Of a stretch of 64,000 nt of DNA, positions 25,647 to 30,843 are shown one piece after another. The notes under the pieces are model-generated. The model had not been told where the DNA came from and made no database searches. It saw only the letters and a list, made by a program, of their open reading frames with translations. How positions within the stretch are numbered: position 1 is the stretch's first letter; every line of letters starts with the position of its first letter. Made by a program: the position numbers and the translations under genes. The DNA is taken from the NCBI RefSeq assembly GCF_054482525.1, contig NZ_CM137006.1, one strand, 5' to 3'.

Positions 25647-26519
25647 TCAGAAGAAAATCCAGTTCCATACAGCGCGGGCAACAGAGACCACCGAGTCACG
25701 GACGGCACGCAGAACCGTGCGTGCAACAGAGGCAATACAGACGCTCTCCGCTGTGTCAAATATCCGGTCCACCGCACCGGTAAACTGTTCACGGGCCTGA
25801 GACCGGACAGATTCCGTGCGCAGCTCGTCCTGCAGGCGGGTCATCAGGGGACTGGCGGCATGGTCGGGAAGCGCTGTCATGAGCGCACTGACCAGCGTAT
25901 CCAGTTCCCAGCCGGTGCGGGCCGATACGGCCACAACCGGATGTACGGGCCGGAACAGACGGAATACCGCCTCCGTTTTTTCGCGAATATTCTGTGCCTG
26001 TGCGGGAGAAGGCTGAATACCGGCCATATCCCATTCATGGCAGGGCTCCGTTTTGTCGGCCTGCGTCACCACAAACAGCACCTGCTGATGTCCCCGGTGC
26101 AGGATGTGTCGCCAGAAATACTCATCCACAGACAGGGCGCGGTCATCGGCTTTAATCAGCCACAGCACCAGGTCCAGTTCGGGCAGAATGTCACGGTACA
26201 GGGCTTCATACTCTGCATCTCTGTCCCGGCTCTCGCCCACCCCGGGCAGGTCAGTGATAACCATGCTGTGACCGTGGCCACTCAGACGGAAGCGCCGCAC
26301 TTCCCGGGTGCCGGCGTGAACATCACTGACCGGGGTGACCTCCCCCTGAAACAGTGCATTACAGAGTGAGGATTTACCGGCCCCGCTTTTACCCATAATG
26401 CCAATCACGGGTTCGTGACTGGTGAGTTTGCGCAGATGTTCCAGGATGTGACGGGAAAGTGAGTAAGGCAGGGAGGAGAGCGGTTTTTCAATTGCCTCAA
26501 TGGCATCAGACGGATTCAT
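25647..26519 (-). CDS. yeeP: YeeP/YfjP/YkfA-family GTPase (copy 1)
   Basis: P-loop GIMGKSGAGKSSLCNALF and DLPG motif; start placed at ATG 26519 (the longer track ORF begins with GTG and no SD). Confidence 0.8.
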   Translation of the reverse strand: MNPSDAIEAIEKPLSSLPYSLSRHILEHLRKLTSHEPVIGIMGKSGAGKSSLCNALFQGEVTPVSDVHAGTREVRRFRLSGHGHSMVITDLPGVGESRDRDAEYEALYRDILPELDLVLWLIKADDRALSVDEYFWRHILHRGHQQVLFVVTQADKTEPCHEWDMAGIQPSPAQAQNIREKTEAVFRLFRPVHPVVAVSARTGWELDTLVSALMTALPDHAASPLMTRLQDELRTESVRSQAREQFTGAVDRIFDTAESVCIASVARTVLRAVRDSVVSVARAVWNWIFF

Positions 26520-26748
26520 ACATGTATTCCCGGTGAAAAAAGACAAAACCCCGCACACCGGAAAGATGGCGGGGGGATTCACGGAGATAATATCTGCCTG
26601 AAATTATTTGGAATGCAGGTATATGTGGCTGATTTGTATCAGCTAATGAGTACAGGTCTGAATCTAATCTGACAGTCCGCTCTGTGCCAGGAGCGGACAT
26701 TGTTTTCCAACTATTACCTAAGCCTGCGAACCATCTCATCTTCACCCC

Positions 26749-27636
26749 TTAAATTCTCAATGTATCGATAACCGCTCGTAGGGCGGGTGACACATTGCGG
26801 TGCGGATAATAGATATATGAACCCTCCAGGCGTTGGCTGTAGCATTGCAAAACTCTGATTAGCGCCCCCTGTTCTATATCATCAGACACTAATTCCTCCG
26901 GAACATAGGCCAGCCCCAGACCTAGCCTTGCGGCTTTGGCTTCCATATAACTGTCAGCAAAGGCCCATTGTCCCTGAGGCTGATGGGTGATCTTTTTACC
27001 GTCCTGATTGAGTTCCCAGACATACAGACTGCCGTCGCCGAACTGGTAAGCGATGCAGGGATGACCTACTAAATCGGTGGGGGTTTGTGGAAATCCGTAG
27101 CGCTGAAAGTGCCCGGGCGTGCCGACAACAGCCATCTCCATATCGGGCGAAATGCGCACCGCAACCATACCGCTATCCACTTCCGAGCCCAGACGTATAC
27201 CGGCATCGAAGCGCTCAGTAATAATATCGACAAACCGGCTTTCGCTGATGAGCTCCAGCCGAATATCCGGGTATCGTTGTTTAAACACCGCCAGCTTCGG
27301 CAGCAGCACTTTATCAATGGCGTGCTGGCTCGCATTAATTCGGACCGTACCCGATGGTGTATGGCGATAATGGGCCAGTGTGGCAAGCCCCATATCTAAG
27401 GCGTCAAATCCAGATTCGACGTTTCGATAGAGTAACTCGCCGGCATGGGTGAGCGATAACTTGCGCGTGGTGCGTACCAGAAGCTGCACGCCCAGTCGCT
27501 CTTCCAGCTCGCGCACTGCACGGCTAATTCCTGATTGCGCCAGGCCAAGCCTCTGCGCGGCGGCGGTAAAACTCCCTTCTCGCACGACCTGCATAAACAG
27601 ATAGAGATCGTTATAGTTTTCCCGTTTCGCCATCAT
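26749..27636 (-). CDS. LysR-family transcriptional regulator
   Basis: 295 aa; N-terminal HTH FTAAAQRLGLAQSGISRAVRELEERLGVQLL plus LysR substrate-binding domain. Confidence 0.85.
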   Translation of the reverse strand: MMAKRENYNDLYLFMQVVREGSFTAAAQRLGLAQSGISRAVRELEERLGVQLLVRTTRKLSLTHAGELLYRNVESGFDALDMGLATLAHYRHTPSGTVRINASQHAIDKVLLPKLAVFKQRYPDIRLELISESRFVDIITERFDAGIRLGSEVDSGMVAVRISPDMEMAVVGTPGHFQRYGFPQTPTDLVGHPCIAYQFGDGSLYVWELNQDGKKITHQPQGQWAFADSYMEAKAARLGLGLAYVPEELVSDDIEQGALIRVLQCYSQRLEGSYIYYPHRNVSPALRAVIDTLRI

Positions 27637-27788
27637 CCTTCCCCTGCTGCATCACAATTCAGAACAATATGTTATTAATCTTAGCATTTTTTACCCTCTA
27701 ATTAGCACTATTAATGCTAACTATAATGTGCGCGTTGCAACAAAGCACAGCAGTGTTATCCGTATGAAACCAGTATCTGGCATATTTT

Positions 27789-28940
27789 ATGAGGGGGATT
27801 TTGATGACTGCTTTCACCCAAAAATTGACAGCCGCGATACCCACCATGCTGTTATGCGTATCATTAAGTGGAGTCACAAATATGAGTTACGCTGATACAA
27901 CCAATCCGAACGCGCCCGTTTCGCAGGTCGAGAAATGGGATAAAACTTTTGCTGAGAGCACGAAAGTTGATCACCGTAAGGTGACCTTTCCGAACCGGTA
28001 CGGGATCACCTTAGTCGGGGATCTCTATATACCGAAGGATCGTGGCGATCGCAAGCTGGCAGCAATTGCTGTTAGTGGCCCCTTCGGGGCGGTGAAAGAG
28101 CAATCCAGCGGCCTGTATGCGCAGACGCTGGCTGAACGGGGGTTTGTCACTCTGGCTTTTGACCCTTCATACACGGGTGAAAGCGGTGGCTACCCGCGAA
28201 ACGTCGCATCTCCGGATATCAACACCGAGGATTTCAGCGCGGCGGTTGATTTCTTAGGCCTGCAAAAAGAGGTGGATCGCAACCGTATCGGGTTGCTCGG
28301 CATCTGCGGATGGGGTGGCATGGCCTTAAACGACGCCGCGATGGACACACGTGTCAAGGCGGTGGCGAGCAGCGTGATGTATGACATGAGCCGTGCAATG
28401 GGGCATGGCGTGGGCGATGGCAAAGACCGCTATACCACTGCCGATCGTCGTGCCGTATTGCAGTATTTGAACATGCAGCGCTGGAAGGATGCTGAAAATG
28501 GCGCTTTCGCGCCAGGCGGGCATGATATTTACGTTGATGAGAAGGGCAACGTCACCGCTTCCGATCGTATTTTACCGGAAACTTTGCCAGCGAATTCTAA
28601 TCCGGTATTGAAAGAGTTCTTTGATTATTACCGCATGCCGCGTGGTTTCCATGCGCGTTCGGTCAACTCAACCAGTGCCTGGAATGCAACCATGCCTCTG
28701 TCATTTATGAATATGCCGCTGCTGAGTTACGCTAATGAAGTTACTATCCCTACACTCATCGTGACCGGTGAAAAAGCCCATTCACGCTATTTTGCTGAAG
28801 ATGCCTTTAAGGCAATCGGCAGCAAAGAGAAAGAGTTAGTGATTGTCCCCGAGGCAAACCATGTTGATCTGTACGACAACGTTGCGGGTAAGATCCCATT
28901 TGCCAAATTTGAGCAATTTTTCAAGGCAAACTTAAGATAA
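27789..28940 (+). CDS. Secreted alpha/beta-fold hydrolase (dienelactone-hydrolase-like)
   Basis: 383 aa; signal peptide ending ...NMSYA; GxCxWG nucleophile-elbow-like LGICGWGG; divergent from the LysR gene. Confidence 0.7.
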   Translation: MRGILMTAFTQKLTAAIPTMLLCVSLSGVTNMSYADTTNPNAPVSQVEKWDKTFAESTKVDHRKVTFPNRYGITLVGDLYIPKDRGDRKLAAIAVSGPFGAVKEQSSGLYAQTLAERGFVTLAFDPSYTGESGGYPRNVASPDINTEDFSAAVDFLGLQKEVDRNRIGLLGICGWGGMALNDAAMDTRVKAVASSVMYDMSRAMGHGVGDGKDRYTTADRRAVLQYLNMQRWKDAENGAFAPGGHDIYVDEKGNVTASDRILPETLPANSNPVLKEFFDYYRMPRGFHARSVNSTSAWNATMPLSFMNMPLLSYANEVTIPTLIVTGEKAHSRYFAEDAFKAIGSKEKELVIVPEANHVDLYDNVAGKIPFAKFEQFFKANLR

Positions 28941-29117
28941 CCCGAAAGGTTTACCAGGCCACCTGTCGTAAACGGGTGGCTTTTAACTGCCTGGTGTGAT
29001 GCAGAATATGCCGCATCGCCCTATATTCTCACCCAACTATTATGTCGTTATTCCCTGAATAACTTCTGACCCGATTGCGCTTGAATCTGGCTGGTTCGAT
29101 ATTAAGGGGGGCTAATA

Positions 29118-30311
29118 ATGTCCACTGTAAGTCTCAAACAATTATACGGAAAAACGCATGCATACTGGAGCGGCGTATTCGCCATGACGCTTTGCGTGTT
29201 TGTGCTGATCGCTTCTGAGTTTATGCCAGTCAGCCTGCTTACGCTCATTGCCCATGATTTGCACGTTACCGAAGGGCTGGCAGGGCAAGGAATTGCTGTC
29301 TCTGGTGCGCTGGCGGTGCTTACCAGTCTGACTATCTCCCGTATTGTCGGAGACCTGAATCGAAAATATCTTTTGCTGGGACTGACGGTCTTAATGGCCA
29401 TATCGGGAATAATTATCACTATAGCACCTGACTATCCGGTTTATATGCTGGGGAGGGCTCTGATTGGTGTTGTCATTGGAGGGTTCTGGTCAATGTCGGC
29501 TGCAACCGCCATTCGGCTCGTGCCGCAGCACCAGGTTTCCCGCGCACTGGCAATTTTTAACGGCGGAAACGCACTGGCCACCGTTGTGGCAGCGCCACTT
29601 GGTAGCTATCTGGGGACAACCATCGGCTGGCGTGGGGCCTTTTTATGTCTGGTCCCCCTTGCGATAGCTGCGTTCATCTGGCAATGGGTCAGTCTGCCTC
29701 CGATGGAAAGTGATAAAACACAAAAGCCACAGAGATCTGTGCTTCGCCTGTTCAGCGTTGCCATCGTACCAACGGGACTGCTGGCCTGCGGACTCTTCTT
29801 TATGGGACAGTTTGCTTTATTTACCTACGTGCGCCTCTTTCTGGAGAGCGTCACCAGAGTGGGACCTTCTGATCTTTCTCTGATTTTGCTCGCAATAGGT
29901 GTAGCAGGCTTTGTCGGCACAATGATCGTCTCAACATTCCTGAACACCATATTTTATAAGACCTTAATAATGATCCCGTTGCTTATGGCAGCGATTACCG
30001 GTGCGTTACTGCTGGTCGGACACCATATCTGGGCTGTTGCCGTTTTACTCAGCCTGTGGGGGCTACTTGCGACAGCTGCGCCAACGGGGTGGTGGACATG
30101 GATAGCACGCGCGTTACCCGAAGATGCAGAGACGGGGGGAGGCCTCATGGTTGCAGTGATTCAGTTATCTATTGCACTTGGTTCAACGGCTGGAGGTCTG
30201 GTATTCGACAGTCTGGGATGGAGAAGTGCTTTTGGTTTAAGTGGTTTGTTACTTCTGGGAGCGGTAGCGATGACATGTGCCACATCCCGTCAAAACAGGA
30301 AGGCGCAGTAG
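29118..30311 (+). CDS. MFS transporter
   Basis: 397 aa; about 12 hydrophobic segments; MFS-like motif GDLNRKYLLLG. Confidence 0.85.
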   Translation: MSTVSLKQLYGKTHAYWSGVFAMTLCVFVLIASEFMPVSLLTLIAHDLHVTEGLAGQGIAVSGALAVLTSLTISRIVGDLNRKYLLLGLTVLMAISGIIITIAPDYPVYMLGRALIGVVIGGFWSMSAATAIRLVPQHQVSRALAIFNGGNALATVVAAPLGSYLGTTIGWRGAFLCLVPLAIAAFIWQWVSLPPMESDKTQKPQRSVLRLFSVAIVPTGLLACGLFFMGQFALFTYVRLFLESVTRVGPSDLSLILLAIGVAGFVGTMIVSTFLNTIFYKTLIMIPLLMAAITGALLLVGHHIWAVAVLLSLWGLLATAAPTGWWTWIARALPEDAETGGGLMVAVIQLSIALGSTAGGLVFDSLGWRSAFGLSGLLLLGAVAMTCATSRQNRKAQ

Positions 30312-30843
30312 CGCAATCCTTTTATTTCTGGCGTACGCTCTTTAAGGCATCCGGCTGAGAGGCTAATGATCACTCCTCGCTCACAACGGACCTTCAGCTC
30401 AGCCGCTCCGGCCGCTTCATGCCATGAATGTACGCAGCCAGTCAGAATATTAAGGTGCGGATTTCAGTTCACTTGCCAGCCCAGTGATACAGGACAGTAA
30501 TGACCAACAATTTGGTATTGATACAACAAGTTGCGGCCCCGGTTCGTGGGGGAGATGAAACGAAGGTAGCTGAAGTTACTGAAATGAAGAATTCAGAGAG
30601 ACTGAATGATATGCCTCACCTTTAGTGAATAGTGTAAAAACGGGAGACTCTCACCCGAGATTATCCACTCATGCTCAATGTATAACTTTCGTGCCCCTCA
30701 CAGGTAAGAGCCGGATACATTCGTTGTGTATGCTGCAGAATTGGTAACCGGGGCCCTGCAGTCTTTAACTCCATGTCTTGTGCTGCTCATTTGCCACAAA
30801 ATCCTGGTACGTCTGCTCAATCATTTCATTCAGCAGTTTTTTT

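What the first reader, a model, noticed from the sequence alone, without database searches (positions are those of the whole stretch)
26749..30311. LysR regulator, secreted alpha/beta hydrolase and MFS transporter form a compact cargo cassette
The LysR gene is divergent from the hydrolase gene, which is followed by the MFS gene. This arrangement suggests an inducible uptake or efflux and hydrolysis unit for an unknown substrate, carried inside the island.
Basis: inference. Interest (0 to 1): 0.3.

Follow-up and report, generated by a model that had tools for sequence, protein, structure and literature searches.

The report
Mobile LysR–periplasmic hydrolase–efflux pump operon
Three intact genes (a LysR-type regulator, an exported cysteine-type alpha/beta hydrolase and an efflux-type membrane transporter) form a conserved unit of unknown substrate, carried as optional cargo in an E. 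coli genomic island; it is real but an ordinary kind of accessory operon.

Summary
LysR is at 26749-27633/27636 (-), the hydrolase at 27804-28940 (+) and the MFS gene at 29118-30311 (+). All three are intact.

It is island cargo in E. coli. Only 102 of 5,426 complete genomes carry the full cassette. It sits in one slot of an Ag43/YeeP/CbtA-type island, and other strains hold different genes there.

It is also a real functional unit. The same trio, in the same layout, occurs in nine other genera sampled, in unrelated neighbourhoods. The three proteins diverge together.

The shared promoter region has an invariant TATAAT and conserved repeated boxes. A hairpin with compensatory changes follows the hydrolase gene. 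In some loci the MFS gene starts only 11-17 nt after that hairpin, which argues for co-transcription.

- **Hydrolase:** PA2218/YcjY family (PDB 2HDW, about 60% identity), with a Sec signal peptide and a Cys168-His353-Glu323 triad. It is periplasmic rather than secreted.
- **MFS:** nearest relatives are the exporters NepI and SotB, so efflux is more likely than uptake.
- **Regulator:** 40% identical to K-12 PgrR, whose gene is divergent from ycjY. The pair is a paralogue of pgrR-ycjY.
- **Substrate:** unknown.

Verdict: new member of a known kind, low interest.

The odd thing lies outside the claim. The slot is bracketed by a 24-bp palindrome that is widespread across phyla and is a target for an IS110-family element.

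The parts
26675..26698 (.). Left boundary palindrome, type A (GTCCGCTC TGTGCCAG GAGCGGAC; 8-8-8). Homology to the island backbone ends here and homology to the cassette begins.
   Evidence: Backbone homology to L003 runs to 26702. Homology to the Kosakonia plasmid starts at 26683. An IS110-family element is inserted between 26691 and 26692 in strain TUM14759.
26749..27636 (-). LysR-type transcriptional regulator (294/295 aa), PgrR-like.
   Evidence: Pfam HTH_1 and LysR_substrate. Best NCBIfam model is YafC, 196 bits against a cut-off of 470. 40% identity to K-12 PgrR/YcjZ over the full length, E 7e-73. 79-97% identical orthologues sit next to the hydrolase gene in every locus examined.
27637..27803 (.). 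Divergent control region. It contains repeated TTAGCA boxes (27681-27686 and 27702-27707), an AGCA-N7-TGCT dyad (27704-27718), an invariant TATAAT (27722-27727), a conserved leader of about 70 nt, and a GAGGGGG Shine-Dalgarno (27791-27797).
   Evidence: Alignment of 8 loci from 7 genera. The same TCTAATCA box lies 17 nt before the -10 hexamer in the K-12 pgrR-ycjY spacer. The generic sigma-70 scan found no strong -35, as expected for an activator- or regulator-dependent promoter.
27804..28940 (+). Exported alpha/beta hydrolase of the PA2218/YcjY family (378 aa). Signal peptide is residues 1-30. Predicted triad is Cys168 (GICGWGG), Glu323 and His353.
28956..28984 (+). Conserved intercistronic stem-loop (10 bp stem, 7 nt loop, then UUUU). 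Probably a partial terminator or an mRNA 3' stabiliser.
   Evidence: A stable hairpin is present at this position in all 8 loci, -16 to -26 kcal/mol. The formal pair count on 7 of them (the Salmonella plasmid hairpin has a different sequence and was left out) gives 100% of cells paired and 3 of 10 pairs with compensatory changes. The generic terminator scan did not call it because the T-run is short.
29118..30311 (+). MFS transporter (397 aa, about 12 TM) of the NepI/SotB-like drug:H+ antiporter type. AAGGGGGG Shine-Dalgarno at 29104-29111.
   Evidence: MFS_1 137 bits. NepI model 271 bits against a cut-off of 584; sugar efflux and Cmx/CmrA efflux models come next. SotB sugar efflux transporter 6KKL E 1e-19. 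Hydropathy profile.
30368..30391 (.). Right boundary palindrome, type B, degenerate here (GATCACTC CTCGCTCA CAACGGAC). Cassette homology ends and island-backbone homology resumes.
   Evidence: Backbone homology to L003 resumes at 30373. Kosakonia homology runs to 30394. The copy is chimeric between the Kosakonia-type and the backbone-type sequence.

Best explanation
This is a regulator-controlled, horizontally mobile two-gene operon with its own LysR-type regulator.

**Regulation (inferred).** The regulator is a paralogue of E. coli PgrR. It binds the conserved repeated boxes and dyad in the 167-bp divergent spacer. In response to a small-molecule ligand it controls a promoter that has an invariant -10 hexamer and a poor -35.

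**Transcript (inferred).** The transcript encodes the hydrolase first. A conserved hairpin just after the hydrolase stop codon terminates or stabilises part of the transcripts. The membrane transporter is therefore made from read-through, at a lower level.

**Hydrolase.** It is exported by Sec to the periplasm. There a Cys168-His353-Glu323 triad in a dienelactone-hydrolase-like alpha/beta fold cleaves an ester, lactone or thioester bond. An amide bond is less likely. The substrate is an exogenous small molecule that has not been identified.

**Transporter.** It belongs to the NepI/SotB exporter branch and expels the same compound or its product from the cytoplasm.

Together this makes a detoxification or processing module rather than a nutrient-uptake system.

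**Shown by computation:** gene integrity, family assignments, catalytic residue positions, export signal, conserved synteny, conserved promoter and hairpin, and accessory, mobile distribution.

**Inferred:** ligand-dependent regulation, co-transcription, direction of transport and chemistry of the substrate.
For: **Linkage**
- LysR, hydrolase and MFS orthologues occur in the same layout in 12 independent contexts. Identities are 79-97% for LysR, 84-96% for the hydrolase and 66-93% for the MFS.
- A metagenomic locus at 43-52% identity keeps all three genes in the order LysR <-> MFS - cyclophilin-like - hydrolase.

**Selection**
- Differences from the Kosakonia copy are mostly at third codon positions: 41 of 53, 29 of 50 and 68 of 98.

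**Regulation**
- The spacer is conserved, with an invariant TATAAT, repeated TTAGCA boxes and an AGCA-N7-TGCT dyad.
- The regulator is 40% identical to PgrR and the hydrolase 33% identical to YcjY. Those two genes are also divergent neighbours in K-12, and ycjY is in the PgrR regulon.
- Both spacers share a TCTAATCA box 17 nt before the -10 hexamer.

**Co-transcription**
- The hairpin after the hydrolase gene is conserved, with covariation.
- In the E. coli thrW copy, Serratia and the Salmonella plasmid, only 11-17 nt separate the hairpin from the MFS start. That leaves no room for a separate promoter.
- The MFS gene has its own strong Shine-Dalgarno.

**Enzyme**
- Cys168 lies at the nucleophile elbow, Glu323 and His353 after strands 7 and 8.
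- Cys aligns with the catalytic Ser of relatives.
- Four of the five homologues that lack the Cys also lack the His.
- DLH is the Pfam family that most homologues match, 23 of 29.

**Export**
- A conserved signal peptide.

**Efflux**
- NepI, sugar-efflux and Cmx/CmrA are the best NCBIfam models. SotB is the only solved relative of note.
Against: - There are no expression, binding or enzymatic data for any member of this module.
- PgrR is described as a repressor, so 'inducible' may mean de-repression rather than activation.
- The hairpin could be a full terminator. Loci with long gaps (143-186 bp) share a conserved block that could be a separate MFS promoter.
- An IncHI2 plasmid variant has lost the MFS gene but kept LysR and the hydrolase, so the transporter is dispensable for whatever the hydrolase does.
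- A periplasmic enzyme paired with a cytoplasm-to-periplasm exporter has no obvious shared substrate pool.
- Direction of transport cannot be read from sequence.
- The nearest paralogue pair (pgrR-ycjY) belongs to a recycling regulon, not a detoxification regulon.
Confidence: 0.6

Rival explanations
1. A salvage or catabolic module. The periplasmic hydrolase releases a usable moiety from a peptide, murein-derived fragment or ester. The MFS imports the product, and the regulator switches the operon on when the substrate is present. This would be analogous to the PgrR-YcjY-MpaA peptidoglycan-peptide recycling regulon.
For: - The regulator and hydrolase are paralogues of PgrR and YcjY. ycjY is co-transcribed with mpaA in the PgrR regulon.
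- In K. pneumoniae the module lies about 1.7 kb from the tpx-ycjG-mpaA-mppA cluster.
- Many homologues also match the peptidase S9 and S15 Pfam models.
Against: - The transporter's closest characterised relatives are all exporters: NepI, SotB, Cmx.
- No catabolic enzyme for a product is linked in any of the 12 contexts.
- The closest structural neighbours with a known function are esterases, thioesterases and lactone-forming enzymes, not peptidases.
Confidence: 0.2
2. Only LysR and the hydrolase form the functional pair. The MFS gene is an independently expressed, loosely associated general efflux pump separated from the hydrolase gene by a true terminator.
For: - The IncHI2 variant keeps LysR, the hydrolase and the hairpin but lacks the MFS gene.
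- A stable conserved hairpin with a short T-run follows the hydrolase stop.
- The MFS diverges faster (66-93%) than the hydrolase (84-96%).
- Loci with long gaps share a conserved block upstream of the MFS gene.
Against: - The MFS orthologue is present in 12 of 13 contexts, including one with a rearranged gene order in which it is the first gene after the divergent promoter.
- Three loci leave only 11-17 nt between the hairpin and the MFS start.
- The T-run is absent in K. michiganensis and Kluyvera.
- No promoter-like site was found in the gap.
Confidence: 0.12
3. Non-functional hitch-hikers: remnants of donor DNA carried passively in the island and decaying.
For: The surrounding island is full of pseudogenes and IS elements. 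In some strains the cassette is hit by IS110- and IS3-family insertions, and one of these truncates the MFS gene.
Against: - All three ORFs are full length.
- Substitutions are mostly at third codon positions relative to a 93% identical copy.
- Catalytic residues, signal peptide, Shine-Dalgarno sites, promoter and hairpin are all intact.
- The cassette is 99-100% conserved across 102 genomes.
Confidence: 0.05

Closest known systems
E. coli K-12 pgrR (ycjZ) - ycjY divergent pair (PgrR regulon: ycjY-ymjDC-mpaA, ycjG; PMC5934670)
   Same: - A LysR-type regulator gene divergent from a YcjY-family hydrolase gene.
- Regulator 40% identical, hydrolase 33% identical.
- Both hydrolases have Cys at the nucleophile elbow.
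- Both spacers carry a TCTAATCA box 17 nt upstream of the -10 hexamer.
   Different: - YcjY has no signal peptide and is 306 aa.
- Its operon partners are ymjD, ymjC and mpaA, not an MFS transporter.
- It is core chromosomal in K-12, not island cargo.
- Identity levels indicate paralogy, not orthology.
Pseudomonas aeruginosa PA2218 (PDB 2HDW, structural-genomics 'hypothetical protein')
   Same: - Identical GICGWGG and HVDLYD motifs.
- Exported.
   Different: - PA2218 has an LVGC lipobox, so it is probably a lipoprotein. The enterobacterial proteins have a signal-peptidase-I site instead.
- No function has been published for PA2218.
- Its gene neighbourhood was not examined here.
Dienelactone hydrolase (Pfam PF01738; Cys-His-Asp alpha/beta hydrolases)
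   Same: - A Cys nucleophile in a G-x-C-x-x-G-G elbow.
- DLH is the Pfam model that most family members match.
   Different: - The match is only at the cut-off (21.7 against 21 bits) and covers half the model.
- The protein is about 130 residues larger, with a big cap insertion.
- It is periplasmic.
- It is not linked to chlorocatechol-pathway genes.
NepI / SotB-type MFS exporters (purine ribonucleoside efflux pump NepI; sugar efflux transporter SotB, PDB 6KKL)
   Same: Best-scoring characterised relatives of the MFS protein, with full-length alignment and 12 TM.
   Different: Scores are far below the equivalog cut-offs (271 against 584, and 157 against 401). It is a distinct subfamily whose substrate is unknown.
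UilS urea-induced AHL lactonase of Serratia marcescens (PMC11633161)
   Same: Best NCBIfam hit for the hydrolase. A dienelactone-hydrolase-like alpha/beta fold.
   Different: The score is 67 bits against a cut-off of 400, over the N-terminal third only. UilS is a 31.5 kDa cytoplasmic protein. Not the same family.

Membership tests
LysR-type transcriptional regulators (LTTR) | N-terminal winged HTH (Pfam HTH_1) plus C-terminal LysR substrate-binding domain | tested here: met
   HTH_1 84 bits (cut-off 26.6) at residues 9-67. LysR_substrate 124 bits (cut-off 28) at residues 93-294.
LysR-type transcriptional regulators (LTTR) | Divergent transcription from the regulated gene, with a conserved dyad or repeated boxes in the spacer | tested here: met
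   A 167-bp divergent spacer. TTAGCA repeats and an AGCA-N7-TGCT dyad are conserved in 8 loci. Binding itself was not tested.
PgrR (YcjZ) orthologue | Orthology to K-12 PgrR and control of the ycjY-mpaA / ycjG peptidoglycan-peptide genes | tested here: not met
   Only 40% identity. The operon contains an MFS gene, not mpaA. K-12 has its own pgrR-ycjY elsewhere. It is a paralogue.
PA2218/YcjY family of alpha/beta hydrolases | Full-length sequence and fold similarity to 2HDW and 5XB6 | tested here: met
   [not shown]
PA2218/YcjY family of alpha/beta hydrolases | Cys at the nucleophile elbow, with His and an acidic residue at the canonical triad positions | tested here: met
   C168 lies between strand 157-167 and helix 169-180, E323 after strand 317-322 and H353 after strand 343-348. 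Cys is present in 24 of 29 and His in 25 of 29 homologues. The Cys aligns with the Ser of serine hydrolases.
PA2218/YcjY family of alpha/beta hydrolases | Hydrolytic activity and substrate | not testable with these tools
   No biochemical data were found for any member.
Dienelactone hydrolase (PF01738) | Score above the Pfam gathering threshold with a full-length domain match | tested here: inconclusive
   21.7 bits against a cut-off of 21. No single stretch passes, and only profile positions 30-126 of 217 are matched. 23 of 29 homologues match DLH.
UilS quorum-quenching AHL lactonase (NF047920) | Score at or above the equivalog cut-off (400 bits) | tested here: not met
   67 bits, residues 78-198 only.
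Major facilitator superfamily | MFS_1 domain and about 12 transmembrane helices | tested here: met
   MFS_1 137 bits. The hydropathy profile shows about 12 TM segments.
NepI purine ribonucleoside efflux pump (NF007578) | Score at or above the equivalog cut-off (584 bits) | tested here: not met
   271 bits. It is a related exporter subfamily only.
Genomic-island cargo (accessory gene cassette) | Patchy distribution within the species, location inside an integrase-bearing island, and alternative content at the same site | tested here: met
   Present in 102 of 5,426 genomes. Island context. Alternative cargos in the same slot. The same island and cassette occur at a second chromosomal site. A 93% identical copy is on a Kosakonia plasmid.
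Anti-phage defence systems (PADLOC) | Match to any defence-system protein model | tested here: not met
   No hits for any of the three proteins.

The most novel reading that the evidence does not exclude
The cassette is one of several interchangeable cargo modules that are swapped by recombination at a conserved pair of 24-bp palindromes. Type A is GTCCGCTyTGTGCCArrAGCGGAC and type B is GTCCGCTnyTCGCTCAnArCGGAC. This would be a cassette-exchange system in the spirit of integron attC or pdif modules, operating in Ag43-type E. coli islands and in Enterobacterales plasmids.

The palindromes bracket every cargo type seen in this slot. They separate gene modules on a Kosakonia plasmid. They are absent from the seven loci scanned where the module has no plasmid or transposon link (six genera). 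The right-hand copy in the window is chimeric, as if a crossover had occurred inside it.
Probability: 0.15. Interest if true: 0.7.

Novelty: new member of a known kind. Interest (0 to 1): 0.25.

Why it matters
As given, the finding matters little. It is one more regulator-enzyme-transporter accessory operon of unknown substrate, already annotated generically in hundreds of genomes.

Its modest value is threefold.

- It ties two structural-genomics orphans (PA2218/2HDW and YcjY/5XB6) to a conserved regulatory and transport context. It also points to a cysteine-based active site. That narrows the experiments needed to find their function.
- The module is mobile across Enterobacterales. It occurs on islands, on Tn3-associated plasmid segments and on IncHI2 conjugative plasmids next to resistance genes. 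Any detoxifying activity would therefore spread easily.
- Defining its exact boundaries exposed a widespread palindrome pair that may mark sites of cargo exchange. That is the part worth a separate look.

Tried and rejected
- **First AlphaFold run.** It used 11 close homologues and was unusable (pLDDT 50). A second run with 29 diverse sequences gave pLDDT 86.
- **Rfam** at permissive thresholds over 26400-30800. It returned only a chance NsiR4 hit over the intercistronic hairpin (E 0.37). There is no known RNA family for the leader, the hairpin or the palindromes.
- **PADLOC.** No defence-system match.
- **Literature.**
  - YcjY gave only an old prediction as a possible cPHB polymerase from its GxCxG motif, plus membership of the PgrR regulon.
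  - PA2218 gave nothing functional.
  - GrgF and DcsB were not retrievable.
  - The palindrome sequences gave no paper.
- **UilS AHL-lactonase and NepI assignments.** Both rejected on score.
- **Lipoprotein reading of the hydrolase.** Rejected because Cys18 is not conserved.
- **Generic promoter and terminator scan.** It found no promoter for either gene and missed the intercistronic hairpin, so it gave no help.
- **RNA structure in the conserved 5' leader.** Only a weak 7-bp consensus stem at -4 kcal/mol, not convincing.
- **K-12 CP4-44.** Checked for an annotated name for the palindrome. The region is deleted or rearranged there and carries no copy.
- **tRNA genes.** None in the window, so the island's attachment site could not be placed.
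- **Recombinase or transposase near the palindrome.** Clustering ORFs around 129 copies found none recurring. LysR regulators, SDRs, GNATs, glyoxalases, OYE and MFS genes recur instead.
- **Costly peptide scan of genome contigs for the hydrolase.** Not run, because 12 independent contexts were already in hand.


Full report
**1. What is there**

The interval holds exactly the three genes described. The ORF list gives:
- a 295-aa LysR-type regulator on the minus strand (26749-27636; RefSeq starts it one codon later);
- an alpha/beta hydrolase on the plus strand;
- a 397-aa MFS transporter (29118-30311).

Pfam confirms the regulator (HTH_1 and LysR_substrate) and the transporter (MFS_1). It gives weak PETase-like, Hydrolase_4 and DLH matches for the enzyme.

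The hydrolase start should be ATG 27804 rather than 27789. A GAGGGGG Shine-Dalgarno lies 7 nt upstream of 27804, and RefSeq uses that start. The MFS gene has its own AAGGGGGG Shine-Dalgarno.

All three genes are full length relative to homologues from other genera.

**2. Where the window comes from and whether this is cargo**

The window is E. coli chromosome. It is 99.4% identical and collinear with strain AH50 over 41.7 kb.

The cassette lies inside an island of the CP4-44/Ag43 type. On one side are a DUF4942 gene, CbtA/YeeU, RadC, an antirestriction gene, DUF932, Ag43 and a YeeP-like GTPase gene. On the other are AlpA, Hha, IS100 and a P4-type integrase. A group-2 capsule (kps) cluster is adjacent.

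Evidence for accessory status:
- Only 102 of 5,426 complete E. coli genomes carry the whole cassette. Its immediate flanks match about 1,650 genomes.
- In other strains the same slot, between the GTPase gene and the AlpA-side backbone, holds a TonB-dependent receptor with an ABC transporter (an ST131 strain and another), a DUF2971 gene with a hypothetical gene, or a hypothetical gene with a small integrase and an ETEC_3214-family gene.
- The cassette-bearing island occurs at a second chromosomal location next to the sgc/yjh genes.

So in E. coli the 'island cargo' reading is correct.

**3. The three genes are a unit**

The same trio, with the regulator divergent and the transporter downstream, is found in:
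- Klebsiella michiganensis, Leminorella grimontii, Rahnella victoriana, Serratia marcescens and Kluyvera cryocrescens chromosomes;
- a Salmonella plasmid next to a Tn3-family transposase;
- a Kosakonia cowanii plasmid and Pantoea megaplasmids;
- a K. pneumoniae record that PLSDB lists as a plasmid but that looks like misassembled chromosome;
- a second E. coli site between thrW and paoD, whose LysR-hydrolase part megablast detects in roughly 178 genomes (the 60-80% identity band).

The flanking genes are unrelated in each case.

The three proteins diverge in parallel: LysR 79-97%, hydrolase 84-96%, MFS 66-93%. A metagenomic locus at only 43-52% identity still links all three, in the order LysR <-> MFS - cyclophilin-like protein - hydrolase.

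Compared with the 93%-identical Kosakonia copy, substitutions are mostly at third codon positions, so all three genes are under purifying selection.

The one exception is an IncHI2 conjugative plasmid. It keeps LysR, the hydrolase, the downstream hairpin and the conserved block that follows it, but has lost the MFS gene. The regulator-hydrolase pair is therefore the core, and the pump is an almost constant accessory.

**4. Signals that bear on co-regulation**

An alignment of the divergent spacer from eight loci shows a block as conserved as the coding sequence. It contains:
- repeated TTAGCA boxes (27681-27686 and 27702-27707);
- an AGCA-N7-TGCT dyad (27704-27718);
- an invariant TATAAT (27722-27727) with a poor -35;
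- a conserved leader of about 70 nt.

That is the usual look of a regulator-dependent LTTR promoter.

After the hydrolase stop codon, all eight loci have a stable hairpin of -16 to -26 kcal/mol. A pair count on seven of them shows every cell paired and compensatory changes in 3 of 10 pairs. The eighth, the Salmonella plasmid hairpin, has a different sequence and was left out. The T-run is short or absent in some species.

In three loci only 11-17 nt separate this hairpin from the MFS start codon. That leaves no room for a promoter and implies read-through transcription. In the long-gap loci, including the window, a further conserved block could be a second promoter, so I cannot exclude it there.

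Co-regulation is thus well supported by comparative evidence but has not been measured.

**5. The hydrolase**

It is a close relative of Pseudomonas aeruginosa PA2218 (PDB 2HDW, E 1e-121, about 60% identity). It is a more distant relative of E. coli YcjY (5XB6). Both are uncharacterised.

The nucleophile elbow reads GICGWGG. Cys168 sits between strand 157-167 and helix 169-180. It aligns with the catalytic serine of serine-hydrolase relatives. Glu323 and His353 occupy the canonical acid and base positions.

Among 29 diverse homologues, Cys is present in 24 and His in 25. Four of the five that lack the Cys also lack the His. That is what one expects of a catalytic pair. DLH is the Pfam model matched by most members, 23 of 29.

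The N-terminus is a Sec signal peptide with a conserved MS[YH]A|D site. Cys18 is not conserved, so the protein is not a lipoprotein. It is therefore a periplasmic cysteine hydrolase of the dienelactone-hydrolase-like kind.

The chemistry most consistent with its neighbours is cleavage of an ester, lactone or thioester. The substrate cannot be named. The UilS AHL-lactonase assignment fails (67 against 400 bits).

**6. The transporter and the regulator**

The MFS protein scores best against NepI (271 bits, cut-off 584). The next best models are sugar-efflux and Cmx/CmrA efflux. Its only notable solved relative is the sugar exporter SotB. It has about 12 TM segments. It belongs to an exporter branch but to no named family, so efflux is the better guess.

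The regulator is 40% identical over its full length to K-12 PgrR (YcjZ). The hydrolase is 33% identical to YcjY. In K-12 these two genes are divergent neighbours, and ycjY-ymjDC-mpaA is listed in the PgrR regulon. Both spacers carry a TCTAATCA box exactly 17 nt upstream of the -10 hexamer.

The cassette's regulator-enzyme pair is therefore a paralogue of pgrR-ycjY. It differs in having an export signal on the enzyme and a pump in place of mpaA.

**7. How it most likely works**

The PgrR-like regulator controls the divergent promoter in response to a small molecule. The hydrolase is made in excess, exported, and cleaves an exogenous ester- or lactone-type compound in the periplasm. Read-through past the hairpin yields a smaller amount of the exporter, which clears what reaches the cytoplasm. 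I put about 0.6 on this.

The rivals:
- **A salvage or uptake module, by analogy with PgrR (0.2).** It is weakened by the exporter affinities and by the lack of any linked catabolic genes.
- **A regulator-hydrolase pair with a loosely attached independent pump (0.12).** It is supported by the IncHI2 variant and the hairpin.
- **Decaying hitch-hikers (0.05).** It is contradicted by the signs of selection.

**8. Boundaries, and the one odd thing**

The whole segment 26683-30394 is 93% identical to a Kosakonia cowanii plasmid. Island-backbone homology stops at 26702 and resumes at 30373. Both junctions therefore fall within overlaps of about 20 bp.

Each overlap is a 24-bp palindrome with 8-bp arms and an 8-bp centre.
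- Type A is GTCCGCTCTGTGCCAGGAGCGGAC, at 26675-26698.
- Type B is GTCCGCTnyTCGCTCAnArCGGAC, degenerate at 30368-30391.

What was seen:
- Every cargo type examined in this slot is bracketed by A on the GTPase side and B on the other side.
- On the Kosakonia plasmid, B-A pairs about 40 bp apart separate successive gene modules. An A copy sits about 50 bp from the LysR stop on the IncHI2 plasmid too.
- The seven module loci scanned that have no plasmid or transposon link lack them (K. michiganensis, Leminorella, Rahnella, Serratia, Kluyvera, a K. pneumoniae record and the E. coli thrW copy), and so does the Salmonella Tn3-linked plasmid.
- The window's B copy is chimeric between the Kosakonia form and the backbone form.
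- In strain TUM14759 an IS110-family element has inserted inside palindrome A, between 26691 and 26692.
- The exact A pattern occurs in at least 120 stretches from Enterobacterales, many Alphaproteobacteria, Nitrosospira, Acidobacteria and others, often several per genome.
- Of 129 copies, 124 are intergenic. About a quarter have a second hairpin with the same stem just upstream.
- No recombinase recurs nearby. LysR regulators and small detoxification-type enzymes do.
- I found no name for this element in Rfam or in the literature.

It may be a REP/BIME-like repeat at which homologous exchange happens. It may instead be a true site-specific recombination site. I cannot tell which.

**9. Verdict**

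It is an ordinary accessory operon of unknown substrate: a new member of known kinds, with low interest (0.25). The palindrome-bracketed cargo slot deserves its own follow-up.

Noticed in passing
window 26675-26698 and 30368-30391; L003 6076 and 7813; L022/L024 272 and 5992; L023 6076 and 9288; L012 3634, 3673, 6981, 10672, 10717, 11412; L021 5922 and 11020: Two flavours of one 24-bp palindrome (8-8-8; same arms GTCCGCT/AGCGGAC, different centres) bracket every cargo type seen in this island slot. They also separate gene modules on a Kosakonia plasmid. The cassette's homology breakpoints fall inside them, and the right-hand copy in the window is chimeric.
   Followed up: partly
L025-L144 (genome-contig scan): The exact type A palindrome (GTCCGCTnTGTGCCAnnAGCGGAC) is multi-copy and almost always intergenic. 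It occurs in Enterobacterales (Pantoea, Mixta, Kosakonia, Enterobacter, Citrobacter and others) and also in Hyphomicrobiales, Rhizobium, Nitrosospira, Acidobacteria and other MAGs. An upstream partner hairpin with the same stem is often present. No name was found in Rfam or in papers. In Mixta a conserved repeat of about 70 bp abuts it.
   Followed up: partly
L147 about 378-1890 (strain TUM14759), equivalent to window 26691/26692: An IS110-family element is inserted precisely inside palindrome A. In the same strain an IS911 copy truncates the MFS gene. IS110-family elements are known, from general knowledge, to target REP- or attC-like palindromes.
   Followed up: partly
L002 7997-11473 (E. 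coli THO-010, between thrW/ykgR and paoD): A second, diverged copy of the same three-gene module (protein identities 83%, 87% and 71%) sits at a fixed chromosomal site. Megablast detects its LysR-hydrolase part in roughly 178 complete E. coli genomes (the 60-80% identity band). The hydrolase cluster includes O55:H7 sequences. RefSeq annotates that hydrolase from an internal Met, which drops the signal peptide.
   Followed up: partly
L011 5732-5941 (Salmonella 60-kb plasmid); L021 (IncHI2 plasmid p58011): Two plasmid variants. One has a 69-aa YdgH/BhsA-like gene inserted between the promoter and the hydrolase gene, next to a Tn3-family transposase. The other, on a conjugative IncHI2 plasmid beside ars genes, has lost the MFS gene.
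   Followed up: partly
window 27733-27790: The 5' leader of the hydrolase mRNA (AAAGCACAGCAGyGTTrTCCGTATGAAACCwGTATC) is conserved across seven genera about as well as the coding sequence. Only a weak stem is predicted. Its role, whether an extra regulator site or an RNA element, is unexplained.
   Followed up: partly
proteins P0146, P0156, P0162, P0171, P0245 (alignment A5): Five distant family members have Gly in place of the nucleophile Cys, and four of them also lack the catalytic His. They are possible pseudo-enzymes. Some relatives are fused to carboxymuconolactone decarboxylase, cupin or copper amine oxidase N-terminal domains.
   Followed up: no
window about 17300-50300 (annotation transferred from L001): The window contains two tandem island copies with parallel gene sets (DUF4942, DUF957, CbtA/YeeU, DUF987, RadC/JAB, antirestriction). 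They are 89-95% identical to each other and separated by the P4-type integrase and a ParD/RelE pair. There are many IS elements (IS4, IS100, IS3) and pseudogenes.
   Followed up: no
PLSDB records CP125156.1, NZ_CP134663.1, NZ_CP141089.1, NZ_CP076548.1: Several 'plasmid' records in the collection are 4.9-5.4 Mb, or are linear pieces carrying core chromosomal genes (tpx, ycjG, mpaA). They appear to be chromosomes or misassemblies, so plasmid counts for this module are inflated.
   Followed up: no
L013 786-4257 and 6000-9468 (K. pneumoniae): In K. pneumoniae the module lies about 1.7 kb beyond the tpx-ycjG-mpaA-mppA cluster. That is the neighbourhood where K-12 has the paralogous ycjY-pgrR pair. 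It could be coincidence or a positional relationship.
   Followed up: no
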